From NCBI GenBank assembly GCA_000004985.1, contig GG739117.1: 7,687 bases of DNA; one strand, written 5' to 3'. The notes under the pieces were generated by a model, which saw only the letters and a program-made list of their open reading frames with translations, was not told the origin of the DNA and did no database searches. The stretch comes from Naegleria gruberi. Its lineage: Eukaryota. The position numbers and the translations under genes were made by a program. This document shows, one piece after another, positions 31-7,687 of the stretch. Each line of letters opens with the position of its first letter. Positions within the stretch are counted from its first letter, which is position 1.

Positions 31-1158
31 ATGCAACAAAATATTAGTGTTGGTCAACAACAACAACAAGCCTTCACTAATTATTATGAACAACAACCAT
101 CATCATCTAATAACAATATAATAACATCATCATCATCATCATTTAATTCTAATATTAATAATAATAATAATAATAATTCTAATAGAATGAATCAAAAAGA
201 AATATATACATATAATTCAGATTGGATGATATATTCACTTTCATGGTCAGTTAGAAGAGATGAAAAGTATAGACTTGCAATTGGATCATTTATAGAAGAA
301 TATAGAAATAAAGTAGATATAATTAAATTAAATAATGATAATATATTAGAAAGAGTTGCACAATTTGAACATCCATATCCTGCTACTAAAATACAATTTC
401 ATCCTTCTGCTTCTATTAATAATCCTGATTTAATTGCTACTTCAGGTGATTATTTACGTTTATGGAATATTAATAATAATTCAACAACTACAACTACAAC
501 TACTAGTAATAATAATGTGAATAATAACATTTCATCACAACAACAACAACAAACAGTTCAAACAGTACAAAAATATCATACATTTAATAATGATAGTTCA
601 AGTGAATTTTGTGCACCATTAACAAGTTTTGATTGGTGTGAATATAATCCTAATATGATTGGTACTTGTTCAATTGATACAACATGTACAATATGGGATA
701 TTCCAACAGGTAAATCTAAAACACAACTTGTAGCACATGATAAAGAAGTTTATGATATTTCATTTAAAGATGAAAATATATTTTGTACAGTTGGTGCAGA
801 TGGTAGTTTGAGAATGTTTGATTTACGTTCATTAGAACATTGTTCAATTTTATATGAACATGAACAATTACAACCTTTATTAAGATTAGCATGGAACAAA
901 CAAGATCCAAATTATATTGCTACCATTTCAATGGATTCAAATATTATTGTTTTAATTGATATTAGATTATCTTCAATTCCATTAATGAAATTATCAGGTC
1001 ATTCTAATTCTGTTAATTCAATTTCATGGGCTCCTCATTCTTCAAATCATTTATGTTCTGTTGGTGATGATGCTCAAGCTTTAATTTGGGATGTTAGAAG
1101 TGGTTTTAATAATAATTTAAATGATCAATATGATAATTCATCATCACAACAACAACAA
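31..1158 (+). CDS. wdr68: DDB1- and CUL4-associated factor 7 (DCAF7/WDR68/HAN11) homologue, WD40-repeat protein; 3'-partial, truncated by assembly gap (about 50 C-terminal residues missing)
   Basis: Continuous ORF from ATG at 31 in an AAAAAAAATG context. From residue about 53 (NQKEIYTYNSDWMIYSLSWSVR...) the translation aligns colinearly with human DCAF7 ([22 protein letters not shown]... FRLALGSFVEEY... DHPYPTTK... DLLATSGDYLRVW... DFCAPLTSFDWNE... GTSSIDTTCTIW... KTQLIAHDKEVYDIAF... SVGADGSVRMFDLRHLEHSTIIYE... PLLRLCWNKQDPNYLATMAMD... IAWAPHSS... DDHQALIWDI). The WD-repeat signatures are conserved. The ORF runs directly into N at 1159, so the stop codon is not in the available sequence. Codon usage is AAT/CAA/TTA/GGT-biased. 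The gene symbol is recalled from the Dictyostelium orthologue naming and should be verified. Confidence 0.88.
55..69 (+). repeat. (CAA)5 trinucleotide repeat encoding a poly-Gln run inside wdr68
   Basis: caacaacaacaacaa read directly; translates as QQQQQ. Confidence 0.9.
151..180 (+). repeat. (AAT)n trinucleotide repeat encoding a poly-Asn run inside wdr68
   Basis: aatattaataataataataataataat read directly; translates as NINNNNNNNSN. Confidence 0.9.
483..557 (+). repeat. Composite coding microsatellites: (ACA/ACT)n poly-Thr, (AAT)n poly-Asn, (CAA)5 poly-Gln
   Basis: acaactacaactacaactact ... aataataatgtgaataataac ... caacaacaacaacaa. Encodes STTTTTTTSNNNVNNNISSQQQQQ and lies in a segment with no counterpart in human DCAF7. 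Confidence 0.85.
1147..1158 (+). repeat. (CAA)4 poly-Gln-encoding repeat running directly into the assembly gap
   Basis: caacaacaacaa followed immediately by N. The repeat probably continues into the gap and may have caused the assembly break. Confidence 0.8.
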
Positions 1159-4100
1159 NNNNNNNNNNNNNNNNNNNNNNNNNNNNNNNNNNNNNNNNNN
1201 NNNNNNNNNNNNNNNNNNNNNNNNNNNNNNNNNNNNNNNNNNNNNNNNNNNNNNNNNNNNNNNNNNNNNNNNNNNNNNNNNNNNNNNNNNNNNNNNNNNN
1301 NNNNNNNNNNNNNNNNNNNNNNNNNNNNNNNNNNNNNNNNNNNNNNNNNNNNNNNNNNNNNNNNNNNNNNNNNNNNNNNNNNNNNNNNNNNNNNNNNNNN
1401 NNNNNNNNNNNNNNNNNNNNNNNNNNNNNNNNNNNNNNNNNNNNNNNNNNNNNNNNNNNNNNNNNNNNNNNNNNNNNNNNNNNNNNNNNNNNNNNNNNNN
1501 NNNNNNNNNNNNNNNNNNNNNNNNNNNNNNNNNNNNNNNNNNNNNNNNNNNNNNNNNNNNNNNNNNNNNNNNNNNNNNNNNNNNNNNNNNNNNNNNNNNN
1601 NNNNNNNNNNNNNNNNNNNNNNNNNNNNNNNNNNNNNNNNNNNNNNNNNNNNNNNNNNNNNNNNNNNNNNNNNNNNNNNNNNNNNNNNNNNNNNNNNNNN
1701 NNNNNNNNNNNNNNNNNNNNNNNNNNNNNNNNNNNNNNNNNNNNNNNNNNNNNNNNNNNNNNNNNNNNNNNNNNNNNNNNNNNNNNNNNNNNNNNNNNNN
1801 NNNNNNNNNNNNNNNNNNNNNNNNNNNNNNNNNNNNNNNNNNNNNNNNNNNNNNNNNNNNNNNNNNNNNNNNNNNNNNNNNNNNNNNNNNNNNNNNNNNN
1901 NNNNNNNNNNNNNNNNNNNNNNNNNNNNNNNNNNNNNNNNNNNNNNNNNNNNNNNNNNNNNNNNNNNNNNNNNNNNNNNNNNNNNNNNNNNNNNNNNNNN
2001 NNNNNNNNNNNNNNNNNNNNNNNNNNNNNNNNNNNNNNNNNNNNNNNNNNNNNNNNNNNNNNNNNNNNNNNNNNNNNNNNNNNNNNNNNNNNNNNNNNNN
2101 NNNNNNNNNNNNNNNNNNNNNNNNNNNNNNNNNNNNNNNNNNNNNNNNNNNNNNNNNNNNNNNNNNNNNNNNNNNNNNNNNNNNNNNNNNNNNNNNNNNN
2201 NNNNNNNNNNNNNNNNNNNNNNNNNNNNNNNNNNNNNNNNNNNNNNNNNNNNNNNNNNNNNNNNNNNNNNNNNNNNNNNNNNNNNNNNNNNNNNNNNNNN
2301 NNNNNNNNNNNNNNNNNNNNNNNNNNNNNNNNNNNNNNNNNNNNNNNNNNNNNNNNNNNNNNNNNNNNNNNNNNNNNNNNNNNNNNNNNNNNNNNNNNNN
2401 NNNNNNNNNNNNNNNNNNNNNNNNNNNNNNNNNNNNNNNNNNNNNNNNNNNNNNNNNNNNNNNNNNNNNNNNNNNNNNNNNNNNNNNNNNNNNNNNNNNN
2501 NNNNNNNNNNNNNNNNNNNNNNNNNNNNNNNNNNNNNNNNNNNNNNNNNNNNNNNNNNNNNNNNNNNNNNNNNNNNNNNNNNNNNNNNNNNNNNNNNNNN
2601 NNNNNNNNNNNNNNNNNNNNNNNNNNNNNNNNNNNNNNNNNNNNNNNNNNNNNNNNNNNNNNNNNNNNNNNNNNNNNNNNNNNNNNNNNNNNNNNNNNNN
2701 NNNNNNNNNNNNNNNNNNNNNNNNNNNNNNNNNNNNNNNNNNNNNNNNNNNNNNNNNNNNNNNNNNNNNNNNNNNNNNNNNNNNNNNNNNNNNNNNNNNN
2801 NNNNNNNNNNNNNNNNNNNNNNNNNNNNNNNNNNNNNNNNNNNNNNNNNNNNNNNNNNNNNNNNNNNNNNNNNNNNNNNNNNNNNNNNNNNNNNNNNNNN
2901 NNNNNNNNNNNNNNNNNNNNNNNNNNNNNNNNNNNNNNNNNNNNNNNNNNNNNNNNNNNNNNNNNNNNNNNNNNNNNNNNNNNNNNNNNNNNNNNNNNNN
3001 NNNNNNNNNNNNNNNNNNNNNNNNNNNNNNNNNNNNNNNNNNNNNNNNNNNNNNNNNNNNNNNNNNNNNNNNNNNNNNNNNNNNNNNNNNNNNNNNNNNN
3101 NNNNNNNNNNNNNNNNNNNNNNNNNNNNNNNNNNNNNNNNNNNNNNNNNNNNNNNNNNNNNNNNNNNNNNNNNNNNNNNNNNNNNNNNNNNNNNNNNNNN
3201 NNNNNNNNNNNNNNNNNNNNNNNNNNNNNNNNNNNNNNNNNNNNNNNNNNNNNNNNNNNNNNNNNNNNNNNNNNNNNNNNNNNNNNNNNNNNNNNNNNNN
3301 NNNNNNNNNNNNNNNNNNNNNNNNNNNNNNNNNNNNNNNNNNNNNNNNNNNNNNNNNNNNNNNNNNNNNNNNNNNNNNNNNNNNNNNNNNNNNNNNNNNN
3401 NNNNNNNNNNNNNNNNNNNNNNNNNNNNNNNNNNNNNNNNNNNNNNNNNNNNNNNNNNNNNNNNNNNNNNNNNNNNNNNNNNNNNNNNNNNNNNNNNNNN
3501 NNNNNNNNNNNNNNNNNNNNNNNNNNNNNNNNNNNNNNNNNNNNNNNNNNNNNNNNNNNNNNNNNNNNNNNNNNNNNNNNNNNNNNNNNNNNNNNNNNNN
3601 NNNNNNNNNNNNNNNNNNNNNNNNNNNNNNNNNNNNNNNNNNNNNNNNNNNNNNNNNNNNNNNNNNNNNNNNNNNNNNNNNNNNNNNNNNNNNNNNNNNN
3701 NNNNNNNNNNNNNNNNNNNNNNNNNNNNNNNNNNNNNNNNNNNNNNNNNNNNNNNNNNNNNNNNNNNNNNNNNNNNNNNNNNNNNNNNNNNNNNNNNNNN
3801 NNNNNNNNNNNNNNNNNNNNNNNNNNNNNNNNNNNNNNNNNNNNNNNNNNNNNNNNNNNNNNNNNNNNNNNNNNNNNNNNNNNNNNNNNNNNNNNNNNNN
3901 NNNNNNNNNNNNNNNNNNNNNNNNNNNNNNNNNNNNNNNNNNNNNNNNNNNNNNNNNNNNNNNNNNNNNNNNNNNNNNNNNNNNNNNNNNNNNNNNNNNN
4001 NNNNNNNNNNNNNNNNNNNNNNNNNNNNNNNNNNNNNNNNNNNNNNNNNNNNNNNNNNNNNNNNNNNNNNNNNNNNNNNNNNNNNNNNNNNNNNNNNNNN

Positions 4101-6365
4101 NNNNNNNNNNNNNNNNNNNNNNNNNNNNNNNNNNNNNNNNNNNNNNNNNNNNNNNNNNNNNNNNNNNNNNNNNNNNNNNNNNNNNNNNNNNNNNNNNNNN
4201 NNNNNNNNNNNNNNNNNNNNNNNNNNNNNNNNNNNNNNNNNNNNNNNNNNNNNNNNNNNNNNNNNNNNNNNNNNNNNNNNNNNNNNNNNNNNNNNNNNNN
4301 NNNNNNNNNNNNNNNNNNNNNNNNNNNNNNNNNNNNNNNNNNNNNNNNNNNNNNNNNNNNNNNNNNNNNNNNNNNNNNNNNNNNNNNNNNNNNNNNNNNN
4401 NNNNNNNNNNNNNNNNNNNNNNNNNNNNNNNNNNNNNNNNNNNNNNNNNNNNNNNNNNNNNNNNNNNNNNNNNNNNNNNNNNNNNNNNNNNNNNNNNNNN
4501 NNNNNNNNNNNNNNNNNNNNNNNNNNNNNNNNNNNNNNNNNNNNNNNNNNNNNNNNNNNNNNNNNNNNNNNNNNNNNNNNNNNNNNNNNNNNNNNNNNNN
4601 NNNNNNNNNNNNNNNNNNNNNNNNNNNNNNNNNNNNNNNNNNNNNNNNNNNNNNNNNNNNNNNNNNNNNNNNNNNNNNNNNNNNNNNNNNNNNNNNNNNN
4701 NNNNNNNNNNNNNNNNNNNNNNNNNNNNNNNNNNNNNNNNNNNNNNNNNNNNNNNNNNNNNNNNNNNNNNNNNNNNNNNNNNNNNNNNNNNNNNNNNNNN
4801 NNNNNNNNNNNNNNNNNNNNNNNNNNNNNNNNNNNNNNNNNNNNNNNNNNNNNNNNNNNNNNNNNNNNNNNNNNNNNNNNNNNNNNNNNNNNNNNNNNNN
4901 NNNNNNNNNNNNNNNNNNNNNNNNNNNNNNNNNNNNNNNNNNNNNNNNNNNNNNNNNNNNNNNNNNNNNNNNNNNNNNNNNNNNNNNNNNNNNNNNNNNN
5001 NNNNNNNNNNNNNNNNNNNNNNNNNNNNNNNNNNNNNNNNNNNNNNNNNNNNNNNNNNNNNNNNNNNNNNNNNNNNNNNNNNNNNNNNNNNNNNNNNNNN
5101 NNNNNNNNNNNNNNNNNNNNNNNNNNNNNNNNNNNNNNNNNNNNNNNNNNNNNNNNNNNNNNNNNNNNNNNNNNNNNNNNNNNNNNNNNNNNNNNNNNNN
5201 NNNNNNNNNNNNNNNNNNNNNNNNNNNNNNNNNNNNNNNNNNNNNNNNNNNNNNNNNNNNNNNNNNNNNNNNNNNNNNNNNNNNNNNNNNNNNNNNNNNN
5301 NNNNNNNNNNNNNNNNNNNNNNNNNNNNNNNNNNNNNNNNNNNNNNNNNNNNNNNNNNNNNNNNNNNNNNNNNNNNNNNNNNNNNNNNNNNNNNNNNNNN
5401 NNNNNNNNNNNNNNNNNNNNNNNNNNNNNNNNNNNNNNNNNNNNNNNNNNNNNNNNNNNNNNNNNNNNNNNNNNNNNNNNNNNNNNNNNNNNNNNNNNNN
5501 NNNNNNNNNNNNNNNNNNNNNNNNNNNNNNNNNNNNNNNNNNNNNNNNNNNNNNNNNNNNNNNNNNNNNNNNNNNNNNNNNNNNNNNNNNNNNNNNNNNN
5601 NNNNNNNNNNNNNNNNNNNNNNNNNNNNNNNNNNNNNNNNNNNNNNNNNNNNNNNNNNNNNNNNNNNNNNNNNNNNNNNNNNNNNNNNNNNNNNNNNNNN
5701 NNNNNNNNNNNNNNNNNNNNNNNNNNNNNNNNNNNNNNNNNNNNNNNNNNNNNNNNNNNNNNNNNNNNNNNNNNNNNNNNNNNNNNNNNNNNNNNNNNNN
5801 NNNNNNNNNNNNNNNNNNNNNNNNNNNNNNNNNNNNNNNNNNNNNNNNNNNNNNNNNNNNNNNNNNNNNNNNNNNNNNNNNNNNNNNNNNNNNNNNNNNN
5901 NNNNNNNNNNNNNNNNNNNNNNNNNNNNNNNNNNNNNNNNNNNNNNNNNNNNNNNNNNNNNNNNNNNNNNNNNNNNNNNNNNNNNNNNNNNNNNNNNNNN
6001 NNNNNNNNNNNNNNNNNNNNNNNNNNNNNNNNNNNNNNNNNNNNNNNNNNNNNNNNNNNNNNNNNNNNNNNNNNNNNNNNNNNNNNNNNNNNNNNNNNNN
6101 NNNNNNNNNNNNNNNNNNNNNNNNNNNNNNNNNNNNNNNNNNNNNNNNNNNNNNNNNNNNNNNNNNNNNNNNNNNNNNNNNNNNNNNNNNNNNNNNNNNN
6201 NNNNNNNNNNNNNNNNNNNNNNNNNNNNNNNNNNNNNNNNNNNNNNNNNNNNNNNNNNNNNNNNNNNNNNNNNNNNNNNNNNNNNNNNNNNNNNNNNNNN
6301 NNNNNNNNNNNNNNNNNNNNNNNNNNNNNNNNNNNNNNNNNNNNNNNNNNNNNNNNNNNNNNNNN
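1159..6365. other. Assembly gap: 5207 consecutive N bases of unknown sequence
   Basis: Uninterrupted run of n characters. The left edge abuts a (CAA)n tract at 1147-1158. Genes on both flanks read into the gap. Confidence 0.99.
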
Positions 6366-6863
6366 TTGTTTTGTAATTGATACCTTCTCTGTACCTGTTC
6401 TTGAATCTTTAATTATTTCTTTTCTTTTACTTATTTTAGATCCATCTCTATTACTTGAAATACTTGAAAATGATGATGAATAATATGAATTAGCATTATC
6501 AAAATTTGAATGATTGTTAATATTATTGAAATGAGAATTAAAGTCTTCATCCATTCTTTTAAATAATTGTTCACTTCTTTTCATCATTGATGACATCATG
6601 TCAAATGGTGAATTTGAAAAGAATGGATCATTATCAAAGAATGAATTTGTCATCTTCATATTAAATGGATCTTCTCTTCTTCTTCTATCATTATTATTAG
6701 AATTAGTATTTGAATTATTTGAATTATTACTATTTGAAGTTGTTCTACTTTTTGTTGGATTGGAAGATGAAGAATGATAATGTCTATAATTATTAATATC
6801 TATGATGTATTGTGTGGTATTCTTAATAATGGAATGTAAACTAGTAGTGATACTTACGATCAT
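6366..6863 (-). CDS. Hypothetical Ser/Asn/Phe-rich low-complexity protein with DPF/FF motifs; 3'-partial (C-terminus lost in the gap). 6863 is the first in-frame ATG of the continuous ORF. The true 5' end is probably exon 1 at 6858-6975 (next feature), in which case 6800-6857 is intron and the in-frame coding part here is 6366-6799.
   Basis: Reverse-strand ORF open from the gap edge (6366) up to ATG at 6863 and then a TAA. Translation: MIVSITTSLHSIIKNTTQYIIDINNYRHYHSSSSNPTKSRTTSNSNNSNNSNTNSNNNDRRRREDPFNMKMTNSFFDNDPFFSNSPFDMMSSMMKRSEQLFKRMDEDFNSHFNNINNHSNFDNANSYYSSSFSSISSNRDGSKISKRKEIIKDSRTGTEKVSITKQ... Codon usage is Dictyostelium-typical. The ATG at 6863 has a poor start context (ccagatgATG). 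Confidence 0.75.
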
Positions 6864-6975
6864 CTGGATCTTCGTATCTTACACTACTACCATTGCTACT
6901 ACTCATATGATCACCATATTCATCATCATCTGATAATTCTTCAAACATTGGTCCTTGATGTTTTGTTTTTCTCAT
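6858..6975 (-). CDS. Candidate exon 1 of the same - strand gene (MRKTKHQGPMFEELSDDDEYGDHMSSSNGSSVRYEDPDD), joined through a putative 58-nt intron (6857..6800, GTAAGT...TCATAG) to the downstream ORF at 6799
   Basis: ATG at 6975-6973 sits in an ideal Dictyostelium context (tatttgaaaATGaga). Thirty-nine codons are open with good codon bias (GAA, GAT, CCA, GGT, TTA) in otherwise AT-rich DNA. This frame closes at a TAG 12 nt after a consensus GTAAGT donor at 6857-6852. A splice from after 6858 to the AG at 6801-6800 restores the long downstream frame (junction codon C|AT = His). The candidate intron is only about 71% AT, low for this genome, so the model is tentative. A 1-nt sequencing frameshift would explain the data equally well. 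Confidence 0.45.
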
Positions 6976-7364
6976 TTTCAAATAACCAAACAATTCACGG
7001 AAGTTGTAATTTTTAAAACTCTATTCTTTCTCAATAGTAGTGTAGTAATACAATCATATATATATACTAAAGACAACACTCACACGATATTGAGGCTTTT
7101 TTTTAAAACTGCTTATTTCCGAGATTTAAAAATAATGAGGCGCCAAGATTTAATTGAGGAAATTATGACATCGGAATTTCTTATTCCTTTATCATTCAAT
7201 TGCATCAATTAATCATCAACACTAAGCAACTTGTATCTAACATTCCAATGAAATAATTGTTTAAAAGAATCAAATTAAAATACTATTATTAGAATAAAAG
7301 GAGTTCGTTCAAATTGATTTTAAAAAACAAATAACAACACATTACATAATAATTAGACAATACT
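6976..7364. promoter_or_regulatory. Divergent intergenic region containing the promoters and 5' UTRs of the - strand gene (start 6975 or 6863) and the + strand gene starting at 7365
   Basis: Lies between two outward-facing start codons. No long ORF with coding-like composition. Homopolymer A/T runs (7098-7111) and AT-rich blocks are typical of Dictyostelium promoters. It also contains unusual GC-containing islands (tgaggc at 7092-7097 and 7136-7141; GGCGCC at 7139-7144). Confidence 0.5.
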
Positions 7365-7687
7365 ATGAATCATAATAATAATAATAGGAAGGAAGAACAT
7401 TCTAATCATCATCAACAACAACAACAACATTATATTCATAATATTAGTAATAATATTAGTAATAATAATAATAATAATGGAATGAATTCAATGTCAGTCT
7501 CTCAAACACTCTCTAATCAATTTAATAATACTATTATTAATAATAATAATACTAATAATACAACATCAACATTTAATCATTCTAGGAAACAAGATCATCA
7601 TCACAATCATGAATATAATTTTCATCATTCAAATTTAAATTTTCAACATCAATTACATAATAATAATAATAATAATAAAAATCAACA
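7365..7687 (+). CDS. 5' part of an uncharacterised His/Asn/Gln-rich low-complexity protein; runs off the window end (5'-complete, 3'-partial)
   Basis: ATG at 7365 is preceded by an in-frame TAG at 7356. The frame then stays open for 107 codons to the last base (MNHNNNNRKEEHSNHHQQQQQHYIHNISNNISNNNNNNGMNSMSVSQTLSNQFNNTIINNNNTNNTTSTFNHSRKQDHHHNHEYNFHHSNLNFQHQLHNNNNNNKNQ...). The supplied track omits it because it has no stop in the window. An open frame this long in DNA this AT-rich is unlikely by chance. Codons are AAT/CAT/CAA-biased. Confidence 0.6.
   Translation, partial: MNHNNNNRKEEHSNHHQQQQQHYIHNISNNISNNNNNNGMNSMSVSQTLSNQFNNTIINNNNTNNTTSTFNHSRKQDHHHNHEYNFHHSNLNFQHQLHNNNNNNKNQ
7371..7479 (+). 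repeat. Cluster of coding trinucleotide repeats: (AAT)n, (CAA)5 and (AAT)6 at the start of the 7365 ORF
   Basis: cataataataataatagg ... caacaacaacaacaacat ... aataataataataataat read directly. Confidence 0.85.

What the first reader, a model, noticed from the sequence alone, without database searches (positions are those of the whole stretch)
6800..6975. Likely mis-modelled 5' end of the - strand gene: a 39-codon upstream exon and a 58-nt GTAAGT intron, or a frameshift
The ORF-track start at 6863 (MIVSITT...) has a weak context (ccagatgATG). A second frame opens 112 nt upstream at an ideal tttgaaaATG (6975) and reads 39 well-biased acidic codons. The two frames overlap for only about 35 nt, and a canonical Dictyostelium donor GTAAGT (6857-6852) sits exactly there. 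Splicing to the AG at 6801-6800 (TCATAG) joins the frames perfectly, giving ...YEDPDD-H-INNYRHYHSSSS.... Dictyostelium introns cluster at the extreme 5' end of genes and nearly always begin with GTAAGT, so a 2-exon model is attractive. The candidate intron is 58 nt and only about 71% AT, whereas typical introns in this genome exceed 85% AT. An alternative donor GTAAGA at 6882 with acceptor AAG at 6822 is also frame-compatible. A single-base indel in the assembly would explain the frame pattern equally well.
Basis: partly seen in the sequence, partly recalled or inferred. Interest (0 to 1): 0.55.

Follow-up and report, generated by a model that had tools for sequence, protein, structure and literature searches.

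The report
Real short intron in Naegleria MLF gene
The frame switch at 6800-6975 is an ordinary 58-base intron near the start of a Naegleria gruberi (not Dictyostelium) myeloid-leukemia-factor-like gene; public annotation of a near-identical copy already has it, so it is correct but not new.

Summary
These are ATG 6975, ATG 6863, GTAAGT 6857-6852, AG 6801-6800, a 58-nt interval of 70.7% AT, and a 35-nt overlap of the two frames. The favoured two-exon model is right. Splicing 6858|6799 gives MRKTKHQGPMFEELSDDDEYGDHMSSSNGSSVRYEDPDD-H-INNYRHY.... This is exactly the N-terminus and junction of the annotated Naegleria gruberi protein XP_002668340.1 (NAEGRDRAFT_76749), which is 97% identical to the window product.

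The organism is therefore Naegleria, not Dictyostelium, and the ">85% AT intron" objection does not apply. Orthologous MLF-family genes (Pfam PF10248) carry a phase-1 GTAAGT...AG intron at the same place, just after the conserved YEDPDD/EEPED motif. This holds in N. lovaniensis, a third Naegleria species and Willaertia magna. Their introns are 79, 123 and 48 nt and cannot be aligned with one another.

Exon 1 is under protein-level selection (dN/dS 0.26-0.33), and codon usage is coding-like in both exons but not in the intron. The frameshift, the alternative GTAAGA/AAG splice and the 6863 start are all rejected. No transcript evidence could be obtained. Verdict: a real and ordinary intron that is already known. 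Interest is low.

The parts
7021..7023 (-). In-frame TAG upstream of the start codon. No ATG lies between it and 6975.
   Evidence: translation (...E*SFKNYNFRELFGYLKM) and the sequence.
6973..6975 (-). Start codon of the MLF-like gene, in the context TTTGAAAATGAGA.
   Evidence: It matches Met1 of XP_002668340.1.
6858..6975 (-). Exon 1 coding part: 118 nt, 39 codons plus 1 nt, ending in phase 1. It encodes MRKTKHQGPMFEELSDDDEYGDHMSSSNGSSVRYEDPDD.
   Evidence: It is identical to residues 1-39 of P0001. It is conserved in orthologues with dN/dS 0.26-0.33. DNA alignment z is 7.8. Codon log-odds are +0.47 in frame and below -1.2 out of frame.
6800..6857 (-). Spliceosomal-type GT-AG intron: 58 nt, phase 1, 70.7% AT. 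The donor GTAAGT is at 6857-6852 and the acceptor TCATAG ends at 6800.
   Evidence: Homologous phase-1 GTAAGT introns of 79, 123 and 48 nt occur in L001, L003 and L002. Read-through reaches a stop at 6843-6841. Codon log-odds are negative in all three frames. Intron alignments are barely above shuffles, z 1.6-2.2.
6366..6799 (-). Visible part of exon 2. The first two bases complete the His codon C|AT. It encodes INNYRHYHSSSS...DPFFSNSPF...KDSRTGTEKVSITKQ and then runs into the N gap.
   Evidence: It is 97-98% identical to P0001 residues 40-186. Codon log-odds are +0.55.
6801..6863 (-). Spurious 5' extension of the mechanical ORF (MIVSITTSLHSIIKNTTQYII). It is intronic sequence that happens to be open in the exon 2 frame.
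   Evidence: Codon log-odds are -0.86, like the flanking non-coding DNA. In N. lovaniensis and L003 the same frame has stops within 3-8 codons of the acceptor.
1159..6365 (.). Run of 5207 N (an assembly gap or mask). It removes the 3' end of the MLF-like gene, about 82 codons judged from P0001, and the 3' part of the + strand WD40 gene.

Best explanation
The - strand gene is the Naegleria gruberi member of the myeloid leukemia factor family (MLF, Pfam PF10248 'Mlf1IP').

Its coding sequence starts at ATG 6975. After 118 nt it is interrupted by a 58-nt phase-1 GT-AG intron (6857-6800, donor GTAAGT, acceptor TAG). It resumes at 6799.

In the pre-mRNA the spliceosome joins 6858 to 6799 and creates a His codon (C|AT). 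This links a conserved acidic N-terminal peptide (GPxFEELSDDDE ... SVRYEDPDD) to the rest of the protein. That remainder is a low-complexity linker followed by the MLF core with its DPFF and KDSRTGTEKVS motifs.

The ATG at 6863 and the peptide MIVSITT... are an artefact of ORF calling that ignores introns.

What is shown: the sequence anatomy, identity with the annotated junction in a near-identical N. gruberi copy, conservation of the intron's position and phase, and coding-type conservation of exon 1.

What is inferred: actual splicing in vivo, and the biochemical role of the protein. By analogy with animal and Giardia Mlf, that role would be an Hsp40/Hsp70-associated proteostasis factor with disordered N- and C-terminal flanks.
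For: 1; the spliced 184-aa product matches P0001 at E = 6.5e-100, 97% identity and 100% coverage. P0001 reads ...SSVRYEDPDDHINNYRHYHSSSS..., which is the proposed junction. P0001 is XP_002668340.1 / EFC35596.1 / NAEGRDRAFT_76749.

2; the N. lovaniensis gene C9374_011907 ('Myeloid leukemia factor 1') has a 79-nt intron, A|GTAAGT...GATAG|AT, in phase 1 straight after SVRYEDPDDM. Removing it reproduces the annotated protein exactly.

3; a third Naegleria species (L003/L004) has a 123-nt phase-1 GTAAGT...CAG|AT intron at the same place. Willaertia magna (L002) has a 48-nt phase-1 GTAAGT...AAG|AT intron after VEEPED. In all four, read-through reaches stop codons.

4; exon 1 has pS 0.52-0.62 against pN 0.20-0.32, giving dN/dS 0.26-0.33 among the Naegleria sequences. 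The GPxFEELSD and SVRYEDPDD blocks differ almost only by synonymous changes.

5; alignment z-scores are 7.8-18.8 for exon 1, 1.6-2.2 for the intron and at most 1.1 for the 5' flank.

6; codon-usage log-odds are +0.47 for exon 1 and +0.55 for exon 2. They are -0.74 to -1.16 in every frame of the intron.

7; the only GTAAGT in the window is this one.

8; all orthologues hit PF10248. The domain match begins after exon 1 (residue 73 of P0001, residue 57 of P0002).

9. Short introns are normal in the genus. The median is 80 bp in N. lovaniensis (PMC6125883). N. gruberi has 33% GC and 1.7 exons per gene (PMC8296547).
Against: - No transcript evidence was obtained. Two metagenome scans, one for the spliced junction and one for the conserved exon 1 sequence, found nothing.
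- All supporting gene models are computational predictions. The N. lovaniensis annotation was RNA-seq guided according to PMC6125883, but I could not inspect reads.
- The window copy is not identical to the annotated copy. It has 3 substitutions and 3 one-residue indels, all in exon 2.
- No clear branch-point or polypyrimidine consensus was identified in the 58-nt intron.
- The window fragment alone gives no Pfam hit, and P0001 scores below the Pfam gathering threshold (27.7 against 34.5 bits).
Confidence: 0.93

Rival explanations
1. There is no intron, and the frame switch is a single-base indel error in the assembly around 6840-6880. The true gene would then be one continuous ORF from 6975.
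For: The two frames overlap by only 35 nt. The window is a small, gap-ridden scaffold, so sequence quality could be poor.
Against: The same interruption exists in three other independently sequenced genomes. There the intervening segment is 79, 123 or 48 nt, carries several stop codons, begins with GTAAGT and ends with AG. In L003 the segment length is a multiple of 3, so no frame shift is involved there, yet stops still interrupt the frame. The peptide an indel-corrected read-through would encode is not conserved, and the segment has non-coding codon statistics. The annotated N. gruberi copy also needed the intron.
Confidence: 0.02
2. The intron is real but uses the other pair: donor GTAAGA at 6882 and acceptor AAG at 6824-6822 (61 nt). 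The product would read ...SSSNGSS|NTTQYIIDINNYRHY.
For: The pair is frame-compatible and has a plausible length.
Against: It would delete VRYEDPDD, the most conserved block of exon 1, which is invariant in three Naegleria sequences. It would keep NTTQYIID, which has no counterpart in any orthologue. It does not match the P0001 junction. All homologous introns use GTAAGT placed directly after the E(D/E)P(D/E)D motif. It is only one of 21 frame-compatible GT..AG pairs.
Confidence: 0.02
3. Translation of the MLF protein starts downstream, either at ATG 6863 or at the Met pair of ...NMKMTNSFFDNDPFF. The 6975 ORF would be a separate upstream ORF or part of the 5' UTR.
For: The Pfam MLF domain match starts only after exon 1. 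From my own recollection, not tested here, animal MLF1 begins close to its DPFF motif.
Against: Exon 1 is conserved at the amino-acid level with mostly synonymous changes. In four taxa the intron joins it in frame to exon 2 despite different intron lengths. A uORF would not require conserved phase and frame continuity. The segment from 6863 to 6801 has non-coding statistics.
Confidence: 0.03

Closest known systems
Naegleria gruberi NAEGRDRAFT_76749 (XP_002668340.1 / EFC35596.1 / UniProt D2W5Q7), 268 aa 'predicted protein'
   Same: The N-terminus, exon 1 peptide and splice junction (YEDPDD-H-INNYRHY) are identical. Overall identity is 97-98% over the 184 residues visible in the window.
   Different: It is encoded on another contig of 7631 bp. 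The window copy differs by 3 substitutions and 3 one-residue indels in exon 2 and lacks its 3' end because of the N gap. No protein identical to the window copy is in the database cluster, which has a single member. I could not determine whether the two are alleles, haplotypes or recent paralogues.
Naegleria lovaniensis C9374_011907 'Myeloid leukemia factor 1' (P0002, locus L001)
   Same: It is the orthologue, at 40-45% identity. It has the same conserved N-terminal peptide and a phase-1 GTAAGT...TAG|AT intron at the homologous position. It hits PF10248 above threshold at 53.8 bits.
   Different: Its intron is 79 nt and cannot be aligned with the window's. Exon 1 is 5 codons longer, and the low-complexity N/S linker is absent.
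Willaertia magna ABK040_006292 (P0004, locus L002)
   Same: It is an MLF-family orthologue in a sister genus. It carries the FEELSDEE and EEPED motifs and a phase-1 GTAAGT intron directly after EEPED.
   Different: Its intron is 48 nt, it has an additional 38-nt intron after codon 3, and it is about 30% identical.
Animal MLF1/MLF2 and Giardia Mlf (Pfam PF10248 Mlf1IP)
   Same: They share a central Mlf domain flanked by disordered N- and C-terminal regions (PMC11527388). The DPFF and DSRTG-like core motifs are present in the window product.
   Different: The acidic exon 1 peptide lies outside the Pfam domain match. I saw it only in heterolobosean sequences. No functional data exist for the Naegleria protein.

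Membership tests
Spliceosomal (U2-type) GT-AG intron | GT at the 5' end and AG at the 3' end | tested here: met
   GTAAGT at 6857-6852 and TCATAG ending at 6800.
Spliceosomal (U2-type) GT-AG intron | Removal restores one continuous reading frame that encodes the conserved protein | tested here: met
   The spliced product is open as far as the gap. It matches XP_002668340.1 across the junction.
Spliceosomal (U2-type) GT-AG intron | Intron position and phase shared with orthologues | tested here: met
   Phase-1 GTAAGT introns lie after the E(D/E)P(D/E)D motif in L001, L003/L004 and L002.
Spliceosomal (U2-type) GT-AG intron | The interior evolves as non-coding DNA: variable length, stops present, no codon bias | tested here: met
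   Lengths are 58, 79, 123 and 48 nt, with stops on read-through. Alignment z is 1.6-2.2 against 7.8-18.8 for exon 1. Codon log-odds are negative in all frames.
Spliceosomal (U2-type) GT-AG intron | Recognisable branch point and polypyrimidine tract | not tested
   I found no Naegleria branch-site consensus in the literature searched (one search returned no papers). L003 has TACTAAT 16 nt upstream of its acceptor. Nothing equally clear is present in the window intron.
Spliceosomal (U2-type) GT-AG intron | A spliced transcript is observed | not testable with these tools
   Metagenome scans for the junction and for the conserved exon 1 sequence gave 0 hits. No RNA-seq or EST resource was available.
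MLF family (Pfam PF10248 Mlf1IP) | Significant match to the PF10248 profile above the gathering score | tested here: inconclusive
   The 184-aa window fragment gives no hit at E <= 0.1; half of the domain lies in the N gap. The full-length sister copy P0001 scores 27.7 bits against a cut-off of 34.5. The orthologue P0002 scores 53.8 bits. PF10248 is precomputed for all six homologues.
MLF family (Pfam PF10248 Mlf1IP) | Conserved core motifs shared with family members (F-D-x-DPFF; KDSRTGTEKVS) | tested here: met
   Both motifs are present in the window product and invariant across the heterolobosean homologues.
MLF family (Pfam PF10248 Mlf1IP) | Interaction with Hsp40/DnaJB-type chaperones | not testable with these tools
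   This is known for Drosophila and Giardia Mlf (PMC5549762 abstract; PMC11527388). There are no data for Naegleria.
   The best protein match is N. gruberi at 97% identity. The remaining hits are Naegleria or Willaertia proteins or unnamed records, and none is named Dictyostelium. The intron is 70.7% AT, in line with the homologous Naegleria introns at 54-63% AT.

The most novel reading that the evidence does not exclude
Exon 1 may encode a conserved acidic N-terminal module specific to heterolobosean MLF proteins. Its form is G-P-x-F-E-E-L-S-D-[DE]3 ... [VI]-x-[YE]-E-[DE]-P-[DE]-D, and the S-D-D-D-E part resembles a casein-kinase-2 site. It lies outside the Pfam MLF domain and has not been described. 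The phase-1 intron marks its boundary and has been retained since before Naegleria and Willaertia diverged. A weaker version is that retention of the short intron is used for regulation, since the unspliced mRNA would give only a 44-aa peptide.
Probability: 0.3. Interest if true: 0.2.

Novelty: already known. Interest (0 to 1): 0.08.

Why it matters
The finding matters little beyond correct annotation. It shows that the mechanical ORF start at 6863 is wrong. The true N-terminus of this scaffold's MLF-like gene is MRKTKHQGPMFEELSDDDEY..., as already modelled for the sister copy NAEGRDRAFT_76749.

It also corrects the taxonomic assumption from Dictyostelium to Naegleria gruberi. That correction matters for any other finding drawn from this window.

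There is a minor by-product. The intron position is conserved across Naegleria and Willaertia, and the N-terminal acidic peptide is a conserved feature of heterolobosean MLF proteins.

Tried and rejected
- **Pfam on the 184-aa window fragment.** No hit. The C-terminal half of the domain lies in the N gap, so family assignment rests on the orthologues.
- **DNA of the annotated sister copy.** The look-up of encoding contigs for P0001 found nothing on record, so I could not compare the two N. gruberi introns at the DNA level.
- **Metagenome scans.** I scanned for the spliced junction GATCCAGATGATCATATTAATAAT and for the conserved exon 1 pattern GTAAGATAYGAAGATCCAGAYGAT. Both gave 0 hits, which is uninformative.
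- **Third protein search, with an N-terminal profile.** It returned only P0007, the 48-aa exon 1 ORF of L003/L004. Oddly, it did not return P0001 or P0002. No transcript-derived proteins were found.
- **Synteny.** I first noted a convergent WD40 gene beside the MLF gene in both the window and N. lovaniensis. tblastn shows only 23-34% identity, so these are different WD40 genes and synteny is not shown.
- **PDB profile search with the MLF alignment.** No meaningful hit.
- **Literature search for a Naegleria 5' splice-site consensus.** No papers.
- **tRNA and Rfam scans of the window.** Nothing found.
- **Own error.** My one search test of the alternative splice used the wrong exon 2 start. It was corrected.

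Full report
**Observation.** I read the - strand of 6500-7687 and checked every coordinate by script.
- ATG 6975-6973 lies in the context TTTGAAAATGAGA. It is the first ATG after an in-frame TAG at 7023-7021.
- It opens a 118-nt stretch encoding MRKTKHQGPMFEELSDDDEYGDHMSSSNGSSVRYEDPDD.
- GTAAGT lies at 6857-6852 and TCATAG ends at 6800. The interval between them is 58 nt and 70.7% AT.
- Joining 6858 to 6799 gives ...YEDPDD-H-INNYRHYHSSSS..., open until the window's N run.
- The upstream frame closes at 6843-6841 and the downstream frame opens at 6878, so the overlap is 35 nt.
- The alternative GTAAGA (6882) / AAG (6824-6822) pair is frame-compatible too.
- There is one small error: the quoted context of the 6863 ATG is really gaagatccagATGatc.
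- GTAAGT occurs once in the whole window on both strands, and that copy is inside the overlap.
- Frame compatibility alone is weak evidence, because 21 GT...AG pairs would join the frames.

**Organism and gene.** The spliced 184-aa product matches a Naegleria gruberi predicted protein (P0001) at E = 6.5e-100, with 97% identity and full coverage.
- P0001 is XP_002668340.1 / EFC35596.1 / NAEGRDRAFT_76749 / D2W5Q7. Its sequence reads ...SSVRYEDPDDHINNYRHYHSSSS..., so the public gene model of a near-identical copy uses exactly the proposed exon 1 and junction.
- The window is therefore Naegleria, not Dictyostelium. N. gruberi has 33% GC and 1.7 exons per gene (PMC8296547), which is consistent with the window's roughly 74% AT.
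- The second hit is N. lovaniensis 'Myeloid leukemia factor 1' (P0002). A profile search added Willaertia magna (P0004) and three more homologues, all carrying Pfam PF10248.
- hmmscan places the MLF domain after exon 1, from residue 73 of P0001 and residue 57 of P0002.
- The window fragment alone gives no Pfam hit, because half the domain is lost in the N run 1159-6365.

**Comparative test of the intron.**
- *N. lovaniensis* (L001): the gene spans 784 nt for a 705-nt CDS. The difference is one 79-nt intron, A|GTAAGT...GATAG|AT, in phase 1, straight after SVRYEDPDDM. Removing it reproduces P0002 exactly.
- *A third Naegleria species* (metagenome and Logan contigs L003/L004): prokaryote-style gene calling split the gene into a 48-aa ORF and a 143-aa ORF. 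Reading the DNA shows exon 1 as MKRTHPRQEKGPTFEELSDDENHHEEHSSSSGAGSVRYEDPDDDAV, then A|GTAAGT...CAG|AT, 123 nt, phase 1.
- *Willaertia magna* (L002): the intron is T|GTAAGT...AAG|AT, 48 nt, phase 1, straight after VEEPED. There is also an extra 38-nt intron after codon 3.
- In all four genomes, reading through the segment hits stop codons. In L003 the intron length is a multiple of three, so that interruption cannot be explained by an indel.

**Coding versus non-coding behaviour.**
- A codon alignment of exon 1 gives pS 0.52-0.62 against pN 0.20-0.32, so dN/dS is 0.26-0.33 among the Naegleria sequences. The GPxFEELSD and SVRYEDPDD blocks differ almost only at synonymous sites.
- Global DNA alignments, scored against shuffles, give z = 7.8-18.8 for exon 1, 1.6-2.2 for the introns and at most 1.1 for the 5' flanks.
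- Codon-usage log-odds were trained on the other two genes of the window. They are +0.47 bits per codon for exon 1 in frame and +0.55 for exon 2. They are -0.74 to -1.16 in all frames of the intron. The frame that the ORF track took for MIVSITT... scores -0.86, like the 5' flank.
- A 58-nt intron of about 71% AT is unremarkable in this genus. The homologous introns are 54-63% AT, and the median N. lovaniensis intron is 80 bp (PMC6125883).

**Rival explanations.**
- *Assembly indel.* This is excluded by the same interruption occurring in three other genomes and in the annotated N. gruberi copy.
- *GTAAGA/AAG alternative.* It would delete the invariant VRYEDPDD and keep the unconserved NTTQYIID. 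It also disagrees with P0001.
- *Downstream start with exon 1 as a uORF.* This does not explain amino-acid-level conservation, nor frame continuity preserved across introns of four different lengths.
- *Remaining weakness.* I have no transcript evidence. Two metagenome scans and a third protein search found nothing useful.

**Function (inferred).** The product is an MLF-family protein.
- In animals and Giardia these are small proteins with a central Mlf domain flanked by disordered regions. They work with Hsp40/Hsp70 in protein quality control (PMC11527388; PMC5549762).
- Exon 1 contributes the conserved acidic start of the N-terminal disordered region. Its specific role is unknown.

**Verdict.** The feature is a real but ordinary short phase-1 spliceosomal intron at 6857-6800, with the start codon at 6975. 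It is already represented in public annotation of a sister copy and of orthologues. Novelty: already known. Interest: low.

Noticed in passing
window 1159-6365 (and position 2): A run of 5207 N splits the window, and position 2 is also N. The 1751-2150-aa 'ORFs' in the mechanical list are artefacts of N being translated as X. Both the + strand WD40 gene and the - strand MLF-like gene lose their 3' parts in this run.
   Followed up: partly
window 31-1158 (+): This is the 5' part of a WD40 beta-propeller gene (376 aa visible) with long N/Q/T-rich inserts. Its Pfam and PDB hits are generic; the best natural PDB hit is GATOR2 WDR24 at 96 bits. It is only 23-34% identical to the WD40 gene that lies convergent to the MLF gene in N. 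lovaniensis and L003, so it is not the orthologue and synteny is not demonstrated.
   Followed up: partly
window 7365-7687 (+): A third gene begins at ATG 7365 and runs off the window end. It encodes a low-complexity N/Q/H-rich peptide, MNHNNNNRKEEHSNHHQQQQQHYIHN.... It is divergent from the MLF-like gene, and the two share a 389-nt intergenic region (6976-7364).
   Followed up: no
window 6366-6799 (-) versus P0001: The window copy differs from XP_002668340.1 by 3 substitutions and 3 single-residue in-frame indels, all in exon 2 (NPTK/NSTR, RRRR-EDP/RRRRSEDP, N-MKMT/NMMKMS, SSMMKR/SS-MKR). Exon 1 and the junction are identical. P0001 sits on a different 7631-bp contig. The two may be haplotypes or recent duplicates; this is unresolved.
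   Followed up: partly
L003 2581-2727 and 3001-3432; L004 1314-1460 and 1734-2165: In metagenome and Logan assemblies of another Naegleria species, prokaryote-style gene calling splits the same gene into a 48-aa ORF (P0007: exon 1 plus read-through) and a 143-aa ORF (P0003). This is the same artefact as the window's ORF track.
   Followed up: yes
L002 3010-3047: The Willaertia magna orthologue has an additional 38-nt GTAAGT...CAG intron after the third codon (MHR|R). It is absent from the Naegleria genes.
   Followed up: partly
L005 1630-2613: An MLF homologue (P0006, 327 aa) lies on a 3.2-kb contig of the unnamed NCBI assembly GCA_037189345.1. It is intronless here, yet it keeps N-terminal acidic motifs (TIQELQDSSDDD, IIEEPDSDED) resembling exon 1. 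I did not identify the organism.
   Followed up: no
tool behaviour: The profile search with the N-terminal alignment A2 did not return P0001 or P0002, although their own N-termini were in the query alignment. The negative results of that search should not be over-interpreted.
   Followed up: no
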